The position numbers were made by a program, and so were the translations under genes. Positions 8,960-14,319 of a DNA stretch of 39,933 nucleotides are shown here, in pieces. The stretch comes from a virus (taxonomy: Duplodnaviria > Heunggongvirae > Uroviricota > Caudoviricetes): positions 1 to 39,933 of the IMG/VR virus record IMGVR_UViG_2778261217_000006; one strand, 5' to 3'. The number at the start of each line of letters is the position of its first letter. Position 1 is the first letter of the stretch. A model generated the notes under the pieces. That model was not told the origin of the DNA, ran no database searches, and saw only the letters and a list, made by a program, of their open reading frames with translations.

Positions 8960-9532
8960 TCAGGGGGATTCATTGATCTTATTTGCCGGAAATTTTCTAT
9001 AAATGGTAGAAACGCCTACATCAAAAATCAGTGCAATACGCTGTCTTGATTCTCCGGCCTCGAGTAAACGCCCAATCTGTGCCCACTGTTCGGTGGTCAA
9101 CTTAGGACGGCGTCCACCTACTCTGCCTTTGGCACGAGCTGCAGCCAGCCCTGCCCTGGTACGTTCAACTATCAGTTCGCGTTCCATTTCAGCCAGGGCA
9201 CCCATGACATGAAAAAAGAAACGGCCCATTGGGGTACTGGTATCAATACTGTCAGTCAGGCTTCTGAAATTCACACCACGCTGGCGCAACTCTTCTATCA
9301 GCGTAACAAGATGCCGCATACTGCGCCCCAACCTGTCCAGCTTCCAGACAACTAGCGTGTCTCCTGCCGATAGTGTCCTGAGTAGTTTTTTCAGCCCCGG
9401 TCTGTCGGACTTAGTGCCACTGATTTTGTCCTCAAAAATCCGCTCACATCCCGCGCAGTTCAGTGCATTACGTTGCAAATCGGTGTTCTGGTCATTTGTT
9501 GACACGCGTACATAGCCAATAAGCATGATCAT
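8960..9532 (-). CDS. Serine DNA invertase (Hin/Gin/Cin/Pin family)
   Basis: N-terminal resolvase catalytic domain (GYVRVSTNDQNTDLQ, VWKLDRLGRS) and C-terminal HTH; lies immediately beside the invertible tail-fibre segment. Confidence 0.9.
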   Translation of the reverse strand: MIMLIGYVRVSTNDQNTDLQRNALNCAGCERIFEDKISGTKSDRPGLKKLLRTLSAGDTLVVWKLDRLGRSMRHLVTLIEELRQRGVNFRSLTDSIDTSTPMGRFFFHVMGALAEMERELIVERTRAGLAAARAKGRVGGRRPKLTTEQWAQIGRLLEAGESRQRIALIFDVGVSTIYRKFPANKINESP

Positions 9533-9553
9533 CCCCCTGAATAAAAACCGGAG

Positions 9554-10093
9554 ATGATGCCAGTTAGCTGTTACCTCTGCATTTTCTTAAACGTTGGTTT
9601 GGGAGAAGGCTCTGCATTACCTGTTGGTGTCCCTGTTCCGTGGCCTTCAGCCACTCCGCCAACAGGCTGGCTGAAATGCAATGGTGCAGCTTTTTCTGCT
9701 GAAGAATACCCGGAACTGGCAAAAGTTTACCCGACAAATAAATTGCCTGATTTACGTGGTGAGTTTATTCGTGGCTGGGATGACGGGCGGGGGATTGATA
9801 CAGGTCGCTCTATTTTAAGTATTCAGGGATATGCAACGGAGGATCATGCTCATGGATTACCGTCAAGATCCACGATTGTGACTGATGCAACTATTAATTT
9901 CTATTTTGATGAAAGCTGGGTAAATAGTGGCACTGACATTATCAAAAGAGGAAACACAAACGATGCCGGATTACCAGCACCGGATTATGGAACCTTTAAA
10001 ACATATAAACAATCAGTGGCTGGTTTAGGTGCCGCAGCCTCAGAAACGCGTCCGCGTAATATTGCATTTAACTATATCGTGAGGGCAGCCTGA
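9554..10093 (+). CDS. Alternative tail-fibre C-terminal variable exon (silent in this orientation)
   Basis: Begins GLGEG..VPVPWPS.TPP.GWL.CNG..F....YPEL, a tail-collar-type fibre tip; shares the GLGEG junction with H at the crossover site; the true N-terminus would be supplied by H after inversion. Confidence 0.6.
   Translation: MMPVSCYLCIFLNVGLGEGSALPVGVPVPWPSATPPTGWLKCNGAAFSAEEYPELAKVYPTNKLPDLRGEFIRGWDDGRGIDTGRSILSIQGYATEDHAHGLPSRSTIVTDATINFYFDESWVNSGTDIIKRGNTNDAGLPAPDYGTFKTYKQSVAGLGAAASETRPRNIAFNYIVRAA
9582..9607. repeat. Left hix/gix-like 26-bp inversion crossover site
   Basis: TTTTCTTAAACG TT GGTTTGGGAGAA; the 16-bp core 9594..9609 is a perfect inverted repeat of 11407..11422. Confidence 0.65.
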
Positions 10094-10695
10094 TGCATAA
10101 AGCAATATTAAATAGTGAGCTCATTGCAACAAAGGCAGGGGATGTTACCGTTTATAACTATGATGGTGAAACACGGGAATATATTTCCACTTCAAATGAA
10201 TATCTTGCCGTTGGTGTCGGCATTCCGGCATGTTCCTGTTTAGATGCCCCTGGCACACATAAGGCTGGTTATGCAATCTGCCGTTCTGCAGATTTTAACT
10301 CATGGGAATATGTGCCAGACCATCGCGGTGAAACGGTCTATAGCACCGAAACAGGAGAATCAAAAGAAATCACCGCTCCGGGTGATTACCCTGAAAATAC
10401 AACCACTATCGCCCTATTAACGCCATATGATAAATGGGATGGTGAGAAATGGGTGACGGATATCGAGGCACAGCATAGCGCCGCAGTAGATGCAGCAGAA
10501 GCACAGCACCAGTCGCTGATTGATACTGCAATGGCTTCCATTAGTCTGATTCAACTGAAATTGCAGGCCGGGAGGAAGCTGACGCAGACAGAAACCACCC
10601 GACTAAACGCTGTGCTGGATTACATTGACGCGGTGACGGCAACGGATACCAGCACCGCGCCGGATGTCATCTGGCCTGAACTGCCGGAGGCGTAG
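10093..10695 (+). CDS. Tail fibre assembly protein, alternative orientation (Tfa')
   Basis: 200 aa with C-terminal ...DTSTAPDVIWPELPEA typical of Mu U / P2 G chaperones. Confidence 0.7.
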   Translation: MHKAILNSELIATKAGDVTVYNYDGETREYISTSNEYLAVGVGIPACSCLDAPGTHKAGYAICRSADFNSWEYVPDHRGETVYSTETGESKEITAPGDYPENTTTIALLTPYDKWDGEKWVTDIEAQHSAAVDAAEAQHQSLIDTAMASISLIQLKLQAGRKLTQTETTRLNAVLDYIDAVTATDTSTAPDVIWPELPEA

Positions 10696-11080
10696 GCCAT
10701 TCAATATCTGGTGCACTGGATGTATCAACCAGTTCCAGTGCTTCCAGATAATCCAGCCACAAATTATATTGTTTCAGCTCATCTTCTTTAAGTCTTCCCA
10801 ATGCAGCCTTACCCTGCCACTGTCTGCTATTGATAAAATCAGTTGCATCAGAGATAAGCATCTGCTTTTGAAAGTTCGCATCTGCGACTTCATCATCATG
10901 AGTACGGATAACCTCTTTAATAGAAGGAGGAAAAACAGAAAAATCGATCACGCCTCCTTCAGCTTGAGATTTTAATAATGACTGCCAGTGTTCTGCCGTT
11001 ATTTCTTTAGAATCTGGCGGAATGATGCCACAGCCATCCATAAAAAAACCAACGGTATTTAAGCAACAGTATATTTTCAT
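10667..11080 (-). CDS. Tail fibre assembly protein, expressed orientation (Tfa)
   Basis: C-terminal ...LVDTSSAPDIEWPTPPA; start set at the ATG just after the H stop (the track ORF runs further upstream to 11299 in a frame overlapping H). Confidence 0.65.
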   Translation of the reverse strand: MKIYCCLNTVGFFMDGCGIIPPDSKEITAEHWQSLLKSQAEGGVIDFSVFPPSIKEVIRTHDDEVADANFQKQMLISDATDFINSRQWQGKAALGRLKEDELKQYNLWLDYLEALELVDTSSAPDIEWPTPPAVQAR

Positions 11081-11081
11081 C

Positions 11082-12470
11082 TTAATACCCAATAGCAATC
11101 CAGTTATAGTAATAACTACCCGTTTGAGCTGCGCACCGTAATAAAAACGAAGTGGTTGTATATCCCCCCGTTGCCACTGCATTGATAGGTGCGCTGACAT
11201 TGTCATAATTTGCAACAACGGCAACACAGGCATTATTAAACGCAACCGGGAATACAACTGTATTTCCATCCCCCCCAGAGGCAGATGCTTTTGCGGCATT
11301 CCACCCCCACTGAATGATTACTGATTGCTCAATACCACCAATCATAACCGGTATAGCTATGAAACCGGTGCGTCCTAATGTAGCCGTTGCTGCATTGAGT
11401 TTTGCTCCTTCTCCCAAACCAAGGTATGTGAGAAGACCAGCTACATCCTTTCCACTCAAATTGGTAAGCGTATTGTCCAGCGGTTGTTTACCTGCCAGCG
11501 CATTAAGCATTGTCGTGGCAAAGTTCGGATCATTCCCCAGTGCCGCCGCCAGTTCGTTCAGTGTATCCAGTGCAGCAGGTGCAGAACCCACCATTCCTGC
11601 AATCGCCGATTTCACAAAAGCCGTAGTGGCAATCTGTGTATTGTTGACCGACTGCGCCGCCGTGGGGGCTGTTGGCGTTCCGGTGAGTGCCGGACTCGAC
11701 AACGGTGCTTTTAGTGCCAGCGCATTGTTAATGGTGGTACTGAAATTCGGATCATTGTTAATGGCTGCGGCTATTTCTTTCAGCGTGTCCAGCGTGGCTG
11801 GCGCACCATTAATAAGGGCCGTCAGTGCCGCCTGTACAAACGCAGTGGTCGCAACCTGCGTGGTATTATTCCCCGCCGCTGGCGTTGGCGCTTTGGGGGT
11901 TCCGGTAAATGTCGGGCTGGCTTTTGGCGCGTACTGTGAATGCGGGTCCGGCGCGGCAAGATGTTTTGCCATCTGATCATCCGCGTACACCTTCAGCTCC
12001 AGTGCCTTGTCATCCACATACTTGCGGGTTGCCAGCACTACAGCAGGGTCGATTTTCAGGGTGATATTGTCCGTGCTGCTGGTAATCAGCACCATGCGCA
12101 CGGTCTGAGTGCGCCCGCTACCTTCAGCCAGTTGCGGCTTATAGCTTTCCGGGCAGTTGCCCACGGCAATCAATGCCCCGGACTCATCAAACAAGCCCAC
12201 TTCACGTATCCACCAACCGCCCTCGTTTTCAGGGATCACCTGTTCGGCAATAATCTGGCTGCTGTTCTGCGGGTCGATATAAAGCATATTCAGCGCAGCC
12301 CGGCGTTTCTCATTTACCAGTGCCGTCTGCTTTGCGTCCGGCGTTGGCAATACTCCACCGCCATCGCCCACCGCCATATGGGTAATTTTTAGCGGCACAC
12401 CGAGCGCGGCGGCGCTGGCAAGTTTCGCCGCGCCAATATCCGTCAGCAGGGTATAAAATTTTGTGCTCAT
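11082..12470 (-). CDS. H: Tail fibre protein gpH (constant N-terminus plus currently selected variable C-terminus)
   Basis: 462 aa with internal tandem ~55-aa repeats and a variable C-terminus; the right crossover site lies inside it at 11409..11434. Confidence 0.85.
   Translation of the reverse strand: MSTKFYTLLTDIGAAKLASAAALGVPLKITHMAVGDGGGVLPTPDAKQTALVNEKRRAALNMLYIDPQNSSQIIAEQVIPENEGGWWIREVGLFDESGALIAVGNCPESYKPQLAEGSGRTQTVRMVLITSSTDNITLKIDPAVVLATRKYVDDKALELKVYADDQMAKHLAAPDPHSQYAPKASPTFTGTPKAPTPAAGNNTTQVATTAFVQAALTALINGAPATLDTLKEIAAAINNDPNFSTTINNALALKAPLSSPALTGTPTAPTAAQSVNNTQIATTAFVKSAIAGMVGSAPAALDTLNELAAALGNDPNFATTMLNALAGKQPLDNTLTNLSGKDVAGLLTYLGLGEGAKLNAATATLGRTGFIAIPVMIGGIEQSVIIQWGWNAAKASASGGDGNTVVFPVAFNNACVAVVANYDNVSAPINAVATGGYTTTSFLLRCAAQTGSYYYNWIAIGY
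11409..11434. repeat. Right hix/gix-like 26-bp inversion crossover site (inside H)
   Basis: Reverse complement reads TTCTCACATACC TT GGTTTGGGAGAA; core is the inverted repeat of the left site. Confidence 0.65.
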
Positions 12471-13072
12471 GGATTCACTCTCATTGTGTCAATAACATGG
12501 ACCGCCCCGCCTTCATGCGCGGTGCCACCGGAAATAATCGTTTCGTTGATATAGGGATAGATCGTGATTTCTTCGCCAAGATAGCTGGCGGCTCCCAGCC
12601 AATGCGGGCCGCTGGTCTGCAGATTGATGGACATGCCGATCATGTGGCGGCTACATGGTTTGGCATCGCTTATCAGTCGCTCAAGTTCCAGATAGGTATC
12701 TTCAGTGATGCCCTGGTCCTGCACGCCGATATCCAGGCGAAACGTACCCGGTGTTTCTCCGGTCTGCCACCACTCAATAATGCGGATCAGGAATCCGAAC
12801 GGTTCCACCACCCGCCGCACGGCACTGGTGGTTCCTTTATGCTGATGAATATAAAAAGCATCCTTCACTACCTGGCGTTTGACGCTTTCTGTCCAGCCCT
12901 CGTCCCAGCGATCCACAGAGAACGCCCAGGCGAGATAAGGCAGGAAGCTGACCGGACAGGTAGCCGGATTCCACAAGTCACGCAGCGGCACCTGCAAATC
13001 AGAAATCCCGCTACAGGTTTGCGCCAGTCGGCGCTCCAGTGAAGTTGAACCCGGTGGCAGCAGACTATTCAT
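12467..13072 (-). CDS. I: Baseplate protein gpI
   Basis: 201 aa; position between J and H as in P2. Confidence 0.8.
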   Translation of the reverse strand: MNSLLPPGSTSLERRLAQTCSGISDLQVPLRDLWNPATCPVSFLPYLAWAFSVDRWDEGWTESVKRQVVKDAFYIHQHKGTTSAVRRVVEPFGFLIRIIEWWQTGETPGTFRLDIGVQDQGITEDTYLELERLISDAKPCSRHMIGMSINLQTSGPHWLGAASYLGEEITIYPYINETIISGGTAHEGGAVHVIDTMRVNP

Positions 13073-13973
13073 CCGTTCCTCCGTTGGTTACGCTCCACTG
13101 CGTACATGATGCCGCCTGTGTTTTGTTCAGGACCACATCCGCCAGCGGAGAAGCCAGTTCCACACGTTGAACACCCTCAACATGCAGAGCAGCAAAGATG
13201 GCGCTACGGCGAATATCCCGACCAAGCCTCGTCTGGCTGGCAATGTACTTCTGCAGACTGGCTTTTGCCGCTGCCATTACCGGCTCTGCTTCCGGTCCCG
13301 GATAGAGAAAAATGGTGGCTTCCACGCGATACGGGATGATTTCTGCGCTGCGAACCGTAAGACGGTCAGCCACCGGGCGGACGTTCTCACTGTTCAGAGC
13401 TTTTTCCACCACGTCCAGCAGGTCTTTTTCTGCAGTTCCATCGCCTTCGCGGCTAAGGACAGTCAGCACCACCTCTGCAGGTGCCGGGCTGGTTGCACTG
13501 GCATCCGCCACCCGACCGTCGGCGCTTCGGGCATGAAATTCATAAGCTGCAGTTGGCCCCGCAACAGAAAGCCCTTCAAAGGCTGCAGGCACACGCAGGC
13601 GCAACGCTTCATCGCTTTCCATCACAGCTGCAACGGGCGGCACAGCATCATTATCAGCAGGCGTCACCGTCAGGCGTGTCACGTTGTAGTTGGCAGCGAG
13701 CTGGTCAAGATCGCCGCCCATCGCGTAAGCCACCATCACCGCCTGCGCGGCTTCGTTAATACGCTGGCGCAGAAGCAACTCACGGTAAGCGTTCTCCTGC
13801 AACAATTTAGTGGCGGGTTCAGATTCCAGTTCCAGCGTGCGGATCACTGCTTCCTGCTCATCTTTCGGATGAAGCGCCACAAATTCTGCCTTGCGTTCGG
13901 CAAGCAGCGTCTCAAAGTCCGGCACATCCACAATCTGCGGTGCAGGCAACTGCGAAAGGTCAATCACTGCCAT
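13065..13973 (-). CDS. J: Baseplate protein gpJ
   Basis: P2 J-like; the track ORF extends to 14012, start chosen at the internal ATG (MAVIDLSQ...). Confidence 0.8.
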   Translation of the reverse strand: MAVIDLSQLPAPQIVDVPDFETLLAERKAEFVALHPKDEQEAVIRTLELESEPATKLLQENAYRELLLRQRINEAAQAVMVAYAMGGDLDQLAANYNVTRLTVTPADNDAVPPVAAVMESDEALRLRVPAAFEGLSVAGPTAAYEFHARSADGRVADASATSPAPAEVVLTVLSREGDGTAEKDLLDVVEKALNSENVRPVADRLTVRSAEIIPYRVEATIFLYPGPEAEPVMAAAKASLQKYIASQTRLGRDIRRSAIFAALHVEGVQRVELASPLADVVLNKTQAASCTQWSVTNGGTDE

Positions 13974-14319
13974 TCTCTGCTCCTGTTGATACGGAAAGGG
14001 ACACAGGCACACCGTTATTCCGCCGCCCGGTCAGCTCCACCACCATTGAACCGTCAAAATTGCTGTTGATGGTGATGGAATCCAGCGTCAACCGTGGCTC
14101 CCAGCGACTCAGCGCCACATACACTGCCGACATGACCTGCAGGCGTAATGCCGGATTTTGTGGCTGATCTATCAGTGCCGACAGCAGGGAACCATATTCC
14201 CGGCGGGCAATACGGCTACCCTGCGGTGTCAGCAGAATGTCCCGCACCGACTGGCGCAGATGATCAATATCAGTAATGACTTTGCCGCTGGTATTGTTCA
14301 TCCCGCTATAAAGCGTCAT
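13960..14319 (-). CDS. W: Baseplate wedge protein gpW (gp25-like)
   Basis: 119 aa; position between V and J. Confidence 0.8.
   Translation of the reverse strand: MTLYSGMNNTSGKVITDIDHLRQSVRDILLTPQGSRIARREYGSLLSALIDQPQNPALRLQVMSAVYVALSRWEPRLTLDSITINSNFDGSMVVELTGRRNNGVPVSLSVSTGAENGSD

What the first reader, a model, noticed from the sequence alone, without database searches (positions are those of the whole stretch)
11500..11900. Internal tandem repeats in tail-fibre gene H
The H product contains two consecutive ~55-aa repeat units (PT..AG.N.TQ[VI]ATTAFV..A.......AP..LDTL.E.AAA..NDPNF.TT..NALA.K.PL) that are also visible as imperfect DNA repeats. Such repeats are recombination substrates for fibre length variation.
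Basis: seen in the sequence. Interest (0 to 1): 0.2.

Follow-up and report, generated by a model that had tools for sequence, protein, structure and literature searches.

The report
Tandem shaft repeats in tail-fibre gene
The tail-fibre gene of this P2-like prophage contains two back-to-back copies of a 74-amino-acid fibre-shaft building block, the same pair already annotated in phage P1; relatives carry one, three or four copies made by in-frame recombination, so the feature is real but ordinary.

Summary
Gene H (window 11082-12470, minus strand, 462 aa) contains two contiguous repeat units. They are 74 aa (222 nt) long, not about 55 aa: unit A is aa 185-258 (11697-11918) and unit B is aa 259-332 (11475-11696). 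The units share 59% aa and 61% nt identity. Third codon positions are only 38% identical, and the longest exact in-register DNA match is 12 nt. The pair is far beyond chance (diagonal score 243 against 35 ± 4.5 in shuffles), but Tandem Repeats Finder does not detect it.

The pair corresponds to the annotated "repeated elements b1 and b2" of the phage P1 S gene. A is 81% identical to b1 and B is 82% identical to b2. Both pairs have a 222-nt period and lie just upstream of a Cin-type inversion site. No Pfam family covers the unit, yet it occurs in more than 25,000 protein clusters, in arrays of up to 9-11 copies.

Close relatives have 1, 3 or 4 units. The extra or merged units are clean A/B chimeras whose junctions fall in conserved-motif codons, at 2-12 nt of shared sequence. 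This is the signature of rare unequal recombination or slippage.

The feature is already known in kind and of low interest.

The parts
11082..12470 (-). Tail-fibre gene H, 462 aa, in its present orientation: constant part aa 1-355 plus invertible C-terminal part aa 356-462.
   Evidence: ORF. PF12571 matches aa 1-150 and PF21882 matches aa 384-462. phrog_327 tail protein, E = 8e-168.
12021..12470 (-). N-terminal P2 gpH-type domain (aa 1-150), presumed to attach the fibre to the baseplate.
   Evidence: PF12571 Phage_tail_fib over positions 1-150 of 150, E = 3.3e-65.
11697..11918 (-). Repeat unit A (aa 185-258): SPTFTGTPKAPTPAAGNNTTQVATTAFVQAALTALINGAPATLDTLKEIAAAINNDPNFSTTINNALALKAPLS.
   Evidence: Self-comparison. 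81% aa identity to P1 S repeated element b1.
11475..11696 (-). Repeat unit B (aa 259-332): SPALTGTPTAPTAAQSVNNTQIATTAFVKSAIAGMVGSAPAALDTLNELAAALGNDPNFATTMLNALAGKQPLD.
   Evidence: Self-comparison. 82% aa identity to P1 S repeated element b2. The single units of P2 H and Fels-2 H are of this type in their C-terminal part.
11746..11756 (-). 11-nt exact direct repeat AATGATCCGAA (codons NDPN) in unit A. Its partner lies 222 nt away at 11524-11534 in unit B.
   Evidence: In-register exact runs. The one-unit relative L032 has its A/B junction in exactly this 12-nt interval.
11524..11534 (-). Partner copy in unit B of the 11-nt direct repeat AATGATCCGAA.
   Evidence: sequence read.
11715..11726 (-). 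12-nt exact direct repeat AATGCGCTGGCA (codons NALA) in unit A. Its partner is at 11493-11504 in unit B. This is the longest identical stretch between the units.
   Evidence: Also, family D4.
11407..11434 (.). Cin/Gin/Pin-type crossover site inside H (codons for YLGLGEG). This is the right end of the invertible segment, 41 nt downstream of unit B.
   Evidence: Inverted repeat with 9582-9609, 28 nt, 82% complementary. The core TTCTCACATACCTTGGTTTGGGAGAA resembles P1 cixR TTATCCAATACCTTGGTTTAAGAGAA. Nucleotide similarity to other phages stops at H nt 1064-1072.
9582..9609 (.). Left crossover site of the invertible segment.
9554..10093 (+). Alternative H C-terminus (phage tail collar domain), silent in the present orientation.
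   Evidence: PF07484, E = 5e-15. The predicted fusion of the H constant part with this ORF is 100% identical to P0104, a 515-aa protein recorded on 55 contigs.
10093..10695 (+). Tail-fibre assembly gene that goes with the alternative C-terminus.
   Evidence: PF02413 Caudo_TAP, E = 7e-31.
10667..11080 (-). Tail-fibre assembly gene for the present orientation. The likely start is the ATG at 11080, one base after the H stop codon, giving 137 aa.
   Evidence: PF02413, E = 3e-19. The start is inferred from the ORF translation and from the 136-aa homologue that follows H in L001.
8960..9532 (-). Serine DNA invertase.
   Evidence: PF00239 plus PF02796. phrog_125 DNA invertase, E = 1e-101.

Best explanation
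The two units are tandem copies of a 74-residue structural module of the fibre shaft. The module sits between the N-terminal baseplate-attachment domain and the exchangeable receptor-binding C-terminus.

The A-B pair is an old duplication. It is the same pair as repeated elements b1 and b2 in the constant part of the phage P1 S gene, which also lie just upstream of a Cin-type inversion site. The protein motifs are held by purifying selection while synonymous sites have been randomised.

Each unit is itself composite. It has an extended N-half (SPxFTGxPxAPT...TQIATTAFV) and a predicted helical C-half (APxxLDTLxELAAAxxNDPNFxTTxxNALAxKxPL). The two halves also occur separately in other fibre proteins.

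The conserved motifs force short identical DNA stretches to lie exactly 222 nt apart. Rare in-register events at these stretches add or remove whole units without breaking the reading frame. The events could be unequal crossing-over, replication slippage or relaxed recombination by a phage recombinase.

Shown: the repeat, its correspondence to P1 b1/b2, variants with 1, 2, 3 and 4 units carrying chimeric junctions, and the wide distribution of the module.

Inferred: that each unit adds a fixed length to a trimeric shaft, which recombination pathway acts, and any effect on adsorption or host range.
For: - Repeat statistics.
- Codon-position identities of 66/80/38% indicate an old duplication under purifying selection.
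- P1 S carries annotated 222-nt repeated elements b1 and b2, ending about 150 nt before cixR. A is 81% aa identical to b1 and B is 82% identical to b2, while cross-comparisons give 61-66%.
- Unit counts in reference phages: P2 H has 1, Fels-2 H has 1 with the same flanks as the window, and P1 S has 2.
- Chimeric units in relatives:
  - P0002/L001 is A-[B nt 1-132 | A nt 141-222]-B. It has 3 mismatches to the chimera model, against 33 and 58 for a pure B or pure A unit. The junction interval is the 8-nt ACACTGAA.
  - P0003/L002 and L047 are A-[B|A]-B with the switch at the ATTAF codons. P0014 shows the same pattern at protein level.
  - P0004/L003 is A-A-B, with the second A 99% identical in DNA to the first.
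  - P0001 is A-A-A-B.
  - L032 has a single [A nt 1-161 | B nt 173-222] unit with its junction in the 11-nt direct repeat. Its N-terminal 552 nt are 99.6% identical to the window.
- Several variants come from complete or multiple assemblies.
- Breadth: 637 phage records. With unit B as query, 25,377 clusters at 50% identity reach E <= 1e-3. A 74-aa spacing predominates, and arrays reach 9-11 full units.
- Half-units occur alone.
- In cyanophage A4 gp24 the N-half motifs lie between the head-binding and cell-wall-binding domains, which the authors describe as linked by a helical stem (PMC12002296).
Against: - No confident 3D model was obtained. Two AlphaFold2 monomer runs gave pLDDT 40-41. The shaft role and the length per unit rest on position in the protein and on analogy.
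- Unit-number variants are rare, about 1-2% of close relatives. The locus is mostly static.
- DNA identity of 61% with at most 12 nt of exact match is well below what efficient RecA recombination needs (my own knowledge). The pathway is unknown.
- The chimeras in L002 and L047 differ at 15-23 positions from their own flanking units. They are either old or were imported from another phage.
Confidence: 0.8

Rival explanations
1. The pair is a frozen ancient duplication. The two units are fixed parts of the fibre, and the DNA repeat plays no part in present-day variation.
For: - 61% nt identity with third codon positions at 38%.
- TRF detects nothing.
- A and B are each closer to P1 b1 and b2 than to each other.
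- 78 of 80 close relatives keep exactly two units.
- The A-to-B junction 60-mer is present in 650 of 5,426 complete E. coli genomes.
Against: Relatives exist with 1, 3 and 4 units, and their chimeric units match their own neighbours almost perfectly. L001 and L032 each have 3 mismatches to the chimera model, and the duplicated unit of L003 is 99% identical to its neighbour. These are recent, independent, in-register events with at least four different junctions.
Confidence: 0.12
2. Unit-number differences arise mainly by importing whole shaft segments from other phages or prophages, through recombination in conserved flanks. They do not arise by misaligned exchange between the A and B units of one gene.
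For: - Tail-fibre genes are strongly mosaic. The window's H joins a P2-type N-terminus to a P1-type b1-b2 and cix region.
- Nucleotide similarity to other phages ends at the inversion site.
- The middle units of L002 and L047 differ at 15-23 positions from their own flanking units.
- The units of P0001 are only 86-93% identical to those of the window.
- Rad52-like phage recombinases recombine short diverged sequences (PMC3945230).
Against: The variants in L001, L003 and L032 are explained almost base for base by their own (or the window's) A and B units, and their flanks are nearly identical to two-unit relatives. That points to events within one lineage, whether between sister copies or between co-resident prophages.
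Confidence: 0.2
3. The similarity is a by-product of low-complexity, Ala/Thr-rich fibre sequence and not a true repeat.
For: The region is rich in A, T, N and L. An antisense ORF of 220 aa (11314-11976, + strand) also stays open there.
Against: - The diagonal score of 243 compares with a maximum of 51 in 200 composition-preserving shuffles.
- The register is an exact 74 aa, with matching motifs.
- The same unit recurs with 74-aa spacing in thousands of proteins.
Confidence: 0.01
4. The units are not spacers. They are functional sites, for example docking sites for the assembly chaperone or a flexible hinge, and the copy number matters for that reason.
For: Nothing direct. The conserved LDTLxELAxAL...NDPNF motif is unusually well kept across very distant phages, including hundreds of actinobacteriophage minor tail proteins. 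This suggests a specific folding or interaction role.
Against: - The units lie in the constant part, yet that part is combined with many unrelated C-termini, each followed by its own assembly gene.
- Copy number ranges from 1 to 11 in different proteins. That is easier to reconcile with a stackable structural element.
Confidence: 0.07

Closest known systems
Repeated elements b1 and b2 in the constant part (Sc) of the tail-fibre gene S of phage P1. They are misc_features in GenBank AF234172, carried over from locus PP1RP (M81956). Sandmeier, Iida and Arber 1992, J Bacteriol 174:3936, is listed as reference 73 in PMC3945230. What that paper says about sequence amplification is from my memory.
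   Same: - Two contiguous units of 222 nt (74 aa).
- A is 81% aa identical to b1 and B is 82% identical to b2.
- The units within each pair share about 61% nt identity.
- The pair lies just upstream of the Cin-type crossover site inside the fibre gene.
   Different: - P1 S has a different N-terminus, with additional 'a0/a1' repeats of another type (KGLVQLSSATNS...AATPKAVK).
- The window's gene has the P2 gpH N-terminal domain instead, and no a-type repeats: Pfam reported no fibre-repeat family on it.
- The variable parts differ.
Phage P2 gpH (NP_046775) and Fels-2 gpH-like protein (YP_001718729)
   Same: - Same N-terminal domain and the same gene order, I - H - assembly gene.
- Both contain the unit.
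- Fels-2 H has the same sequences flanking the unit and also has inverted fibre and assembly gene remnants.
   Different: - P2 H and Fels-2 H have one unit where the window has two.
- P2 H also has two a-type repeats upstream of its unit, and no invertible segment is annotated next to it.
Rearranged sequence motifs in phage tail-fibre genes in general. Sandmeier 1994, Mol Microbiol 12:343, and Haggard-Ljungquist et al. 1992, J Bacteriol 174:1462, are cited as references 74 and 72 in PMC3945230. Their content is from my memory.
   Same: Short conserved motifs are shared among P1, P2, Mu and lambda fibre genes, and are repeated and shuffled within genes. The tblastn hits to lambda Stf, P1 S, Fels-2 and many others are consistent with this.
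   Different: The present data add mapped in-register junctions for gain and loss of one particular 74-aa unit in a single P2-like lineage. I cannot say whether this has been published.
Solved fibre proteins with half-unit motifs: 9d93 'tail collar fibers gp4', 9k09 cyanophage A4 gp24, 9cuy/9mjn putative tail fibre, 6v8i phage 80alpha FibU
   Same: - 9d93 and 6v8i match the C-half (LDTLxELAxA...).
- 9k09 and 9cuy match the N-half (SPxxTGxPxxxT...IATTAxV).
   Different: - None contains a whole unit.
- In 80alpha FibU the matching region (residues 268-298) was not modelled, because no density was seen beyond residue 123 (PMC7048315).
- These are sequence matches only, and the folds were not compared.

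Membership tests
P2 gpH-type tail fibre | N-terminal Phage_tail_fib domain (PF12571) | tested here: met
   E = 3.3e-65 over the full 150-position profile.
P2 gpH-type tail fibre | Gene order V-W-J-I-H-assembly gene, with sheath and tube genes downstream | tested here: met
   TIGR01634 tail_P2_I. Baseplate_J, GPW_gp25, Phage_base_V, sheath and tube families. Caudo_TAP.
P2 gpH-type tail fibre | Homotrimeric fibre attached to the baseplate | not testable with these tools
   Only monomer prediction was available. Both models had pLDDT 40-41.
P1 Sc b-type repeated element | Tandem units of 222 nt (74 aa) | tested here: met
   Offset of 74 aa. P1 b1 and b2 are 223 and 222 nt.
P1 Sc b-type repeated element | Sequence similarity unit for unit to b1 and b2 | tested here: met
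   A against b1: 81% aa, 73% nt. B against b2: 82% aa, 70% nt. Cross pairs: 61-66% aa.
P1 Sc b-type repeated element | Position in the constant part, directly upstream of the cix crossover site | tested here: met
   Unit B ends at 11475 and the crossover site is at 11407-11434. In P1, b2 ends about 150 nt before cixR.
Cin/Gin/Pin invertible tail-fibre segment | Serine invertase next to a segment bounded by inverted crossover sites of about 26 bp | tested here: met
   PF00239 plus PF02796. Inverted repeat of 28 nt, 82% complementary. The site matches P1 cixR at 20 of 26 positions by my count of the sequences.
Cin/Gin/Pin invertible tail-fibre segment | Two alternative C-termini, each with its own assembly gene, in opposite orientations | tested here: met
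   9554-10093 (+) with 10093-10695 (+), against H aa 356-462 with 10667-11080 (-).
Cin/Gin/Pin invertible tail-fibre segment | Inversion actually occurs | tested here: met
   The predicted flipped fusion protein is 100% identical to P0104, recorded on 55 contigs. This is indirect: it shows the other orientation exists in other genomes, not switching in this strain.
Recombination-proficient tandem DNA repeat (long, near-identical units) | High DNA identity between units, detectable by TRF, with identical stretches of tens of bases | tested here: not met
   61% identity, longest exact run 12 nt. TRF finds no array at score 30.
Pfam phage fibre repeat families | Match of the unit to a curated repeat model | tested here: not met
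   No fibre family matched the units or the 203-aa repeat region even at E <= 10. Only spurious sub-threshold hits appeared.

The most novel reading that the evidence does not exclude
The conserved-motif codons of the unit may act as built-in, in-frame microhomology hot spots. P2-like prophage populations would then continually produce fibres of 1, 2, 3 or 4 units, and selection would pick the length that matches the depth of the host's O-antigen or capsule layer. This would be a quantised fibre-length switch working alongside the invertase-driven switch of the receptor-binding tip. In some relatives the tip switch itself adds or removes a unit.
Probability: 0.12. Interest if true: 0.4.

Novelty: already known. 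Interest (0 to 1): 0.15.

Why it matters
- For annotation, this very common 74-aa fibre module has no Pfam model. It matched more than 25,000 clusters at 50% identity and forms arrays of up to 9-11 units. Fibre genes carrying it are therefore labelled only 'phage tail protein'.
- For phage biology and engineering, the natural 1-, 2-, 3- and 4-unit variants of an otherwise near-identical fibre are a ready-made series. They could be used to test whether shaft length affects adsorption or host range.
- Beyond that, the finding does not change current understanding. Tandem motif repeats in tail-fibre genes, including this exact pair in P1, have been described since the early 1990s.

Tried and rejected
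- Tandem Repeats Finder on 10500-14000 at minimum score 30 found nothing, because the units are too diverged.
- Pfam and NCBIfam scans of the unit and of H gave no family for the repeat region.
- AlphaFold2 on the 203-aa repeat region alone gave pLDDT 40. A run on the two-unit region with a 26-row alignment of diverse two-unit segments gave pLDDT 41. Both models are too poor for fold searches, so none was run.
- I tried to count unit-number variants in 5,426 complete E. coli genomes with 60-nt junction probes. The A-to-B probe gave a clean denominator of 650 genomes. The A-to-A and B|A probes could not be interpreted, because the tool joins the two half-matches 222 nt apart into one full-coverage place.
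- The publication behind PDB 9d93 could not be identified.
- The 1992 and 1994 Sandmeier papers, Haggard-Ljungquist 1992 and the P1 genome paper are not held in the library.
- The antisense ORFs over the repeat (for example 11314-11976, + strand) were not analysed further. I treat them as by-products of the coding strand's composition.

Full report
**Observation.** The finding lies in ORF 11082..12470 on the minus strand, which encodes 462 aa. Comparing the protein with itself gives one dominant off-diagonal, at an offset of 74 residues. It covers aa 181-259 against aa 255-333 and scores 243 with BLOSUM62. In 200 shuffles of the same protein the mean was 35.4 (SD 4.5, maximum 51). The units are contiguous:
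- Unit A is aa 185-258 (window 11697-11918).
- Unit B is aa 259-332 (window 11475-11696).

They share 59% of residues and 61% of nucleotides. Identity by codon position is 66%, 80% and 38%. The longest in-register exact DNA matches are 8, 11 and 12 nt. Tandem Repeats Finder finds no array, and the repeat finder recovers only a 27-nt piece at spacing 222. A dot-plot-type scan of 11400-12000 still picks out offset 222. Its best 200-nt window is 63% identical, against a mean of 28% (SD 4) at other offsets, z = 8.3. The repeat is therefore real and well beyond chance. The period is 74 aa, not about 55 aa, and the DNA similarity is marginal.

**Gene and surroundings.** The product has the P2 gpH-type N-terminal domain (PF12571, E = 3e-65) and a Gp53-like C-terminal domain. 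Upstream in the direction of transcription are gene I (TIGR01634) and the J, W and V genes. Downstream are a tail-fibre assembly gene, then the sheath, tube and tape-measure genes. This is a P2-like prophage. The closest phage record is Escherichia phage 500465-1, at 99.7% identity over H nt 1-1064.

Similarity to other phages stops at H nt 1064-1072. That position coincides with a 28-nt inverted repeat, 11407-11434 paired with 9582-9609. Its core, TTCTCACATACCTTGGTTTGGGAGAA, resembles P1 cixR, TTATCCAATACCTTGGTTTAAGAGAA. A serine invertase gene lies at 8960-9532. Inside the segment are an alternative C-terminus (9554-10093, tail collar domain) and a second assembly gene (10093-10695), both in the opposite orientation. 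The fusion protein predicted after inversion is 100% identical to P0104, a 515-aa protein recorded on 55 contigs. The two repeat units therefore end the constant part of H, 41 nt before the crossover site.

**What the units are.** No Pfam or NCBIfam model covers them. Dozens of PHROG tail-fibre families do. A tblastn search of 50,697 phage records finds the region in 637 records. Phage P1 matches over all 148 residues at 82% identity.

The P1 record annotates exactly this stretch of gene S as "repeated element b1" (223 nt) and "repeated element b2" (222 nt). These lie in the constant part Sc and end about 150 nt before cixR. Unit A is 81% identical to b1 and unit B is 82% identical to b2. The cross pairs are 61-66% identical, and b1 against b2 is 61% at nucleotide level, the same as A against B. 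The A-B pair is thus an old duplication shared with P1, not a recent event in this prophage.

P2 H and Fels-2 H each carry a single unit. Fels-2 H has the same flanking sequences as the window.

With unit B as query, 25,377 protein clusters at 50% identity reach E <= 1e-3, and 7,485 reach 1e-10. Among the 150 best hits, a start-to-start spacing of 74 aa predominates. Arrays reach 9 and 11 full units.

The unit is composite:
- The N-half (SPxFTGxPxAPT...IATTAFV) occurs alone, sometimes in long arrays.
- The C-half (APxxLDTLxELAAA..NDPNF) occurs alone in lambda Stf and in hundreds of actinobacteriophage minor tail proteins.

Solved structures match only half-units by sequence. These are 9d93 gp4 and 80alpha FibU for the C-half, and cyanophage A4 gp24 and 9cuy for the N-half. 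In FibU the matching part was not modelled (PMC7048315). In A4 gp24 the motifs lie between two terminal domains that the authors describe as linked by a helical stem (PMC12002296).

Two AlphaFold2 monomer models were of low confidence, pLDDT 40-41. They suggest only an extended N-terminal stretch of about 25 residues followed by two or three helices per unit.

**Copy-number variation.** Among the 120 best protein-cluster hits to the constant part:
- 106 have two units.
- Six have three tandem units.
- One has four.
- Seven have two tandem units plus a third, divergent unit downstream of the crossover site.

Among 80 IMG/VR loci at least 97% identical in the N-terminal domain, 78 have two units, one has three and one has one.

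The variants are in-register chimeras:

| Variant | Arrangement | Junction and fit |
|---|---|---|
| P0002 / L001 | A-[B\|A]-B | Switch inside the LDTL codons, in the 8-nt interval ACACTGAA. 3 mismatches to a chimera of its own A and B, against 33 for pure B and 58 for pure A. |
| P0003 / L002 and L047 | A-[B\|A]-B | Switch at the ATTAF codons, with 15-23 later differences. P0014 shows the same pattern at protein level. |
| P0004 / L003 | A-A-B | The second A is 99% identical in DNA to the first. |
| P0001 | A-A-A-B | Protein level only. |
| L032 | single [A\|B] unit | Junction in the 12-nt interval AATGAYCCGAA, at the position of the 11-nt exact direct repeat present 222 nt apart in the window (11746-11756 and 11524-11534). 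Its flank is 99.6% identical to the window. |

A-[B_N A_C]-B and the single [A_N B_C] unit are the two reciprocal products expected from misaligned exchange between A and B. At least four different junctions are seen, so the events are independent. Several variants come from complete genomes or from more than one assembly. Units only 61% identical would not mislead an assembler.

**Mechanism.** The best reading is that the units are stackable segments of the trimeric shaft. Purifying selection on the protein motifs keeps a few short identical DNA stretches exactly 222 nt apart. Rare misaligned exchange or slippage at those stretches adds or deletes whole units in frame.

The repeat, its correspondence to P1, the variants and their junctions are shown. 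The fixed length per unit, the pathway and any phenotypic effect are inferred. On the pathway, 2-12 nt of shared sequence is too short for efficient RecA recombination (my own knowledge). Phage Rad52-like recombinases tolerate short diverged homology (PMC3945230), and RecA-independent slippage is also possible.

Variation is infrequent. The A-to-B junction 60-mer is present in 650 of 5,426 complete E. coli genomes, and about 98% of close relatives keep two units.

**Comparison with what is known, and novelty.** The feature is the counterpart of the P1 Sc b1/b2 repeated elements, here attached to a P2-type N-terminus. Repetition and rearrangement of such motifs in fibre genes is long established (Sandmeier et al. 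1992 and Sandmeier 1994, cited in PMC3945230; their content is from my memory). The mapped junctions for unit gain and loss are a small addition.

Noticed in passing
window 8960-11434: A complete Cin/Gin/Pin-type invertible tail-fibre segment. It comprises a serine invertase (8960-9532, -), crossover sites at 9582-9609 and 11407-11434, and two alternative H C-termini, each with its own assembly gene. The fusion protein predicted after inversion is 100% identical to a database protein seen on 55 contigs (P0104).
   Followed up: yes
L004-L083 (IMG/VR relatives), about 1050-1180 nt after the H start: Many contigs of close relatives end at or just after the inversion site. Ten truncated H ORFs are exactly 354 aa long. 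This looks like assembly breakage caused by mixed orientations of the segment in the sequenced populations.
   Followed up: partly
P0007-P0013 (543-aa relatives), aa 361-434: One alternative variable C-terminus carries a third, divergent copy of the 74-aa unit (about 53% identical to A and B) downstream of the crossover site. In those prophages, inversion would change the unit number as well as the receptor-binding tip.
   Followed up: partly
window 10667-11299 (-): The ORF listed for the assembly gene overlaps the 3' end of H by 218 nt. The likely true start is the ATG at 11080, one base after the H stop codon, giving a 137-aa Caudo_TAP protein like the 136-aa homologue in L001.
   Followed up: partly
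window 11314-11976 (+) and 11484-11714 (+): Long antisense ORFs of 220 and 76 aa stay open opposite the repeat region. I took them to be by-products of the coding strand's composition and did not test them.
   Followed up: no
P0121-P0270 (representative proteins): The 74-aa unit has no Pfam family, yet it occurs in more than 25,000 clusters at 50% identity. Arrays reach 9-11 full units (for example P0122, 1039 aa). The N-half alone is matched in up to 23 stretches in one protein (P0127).
   Followed up: partly
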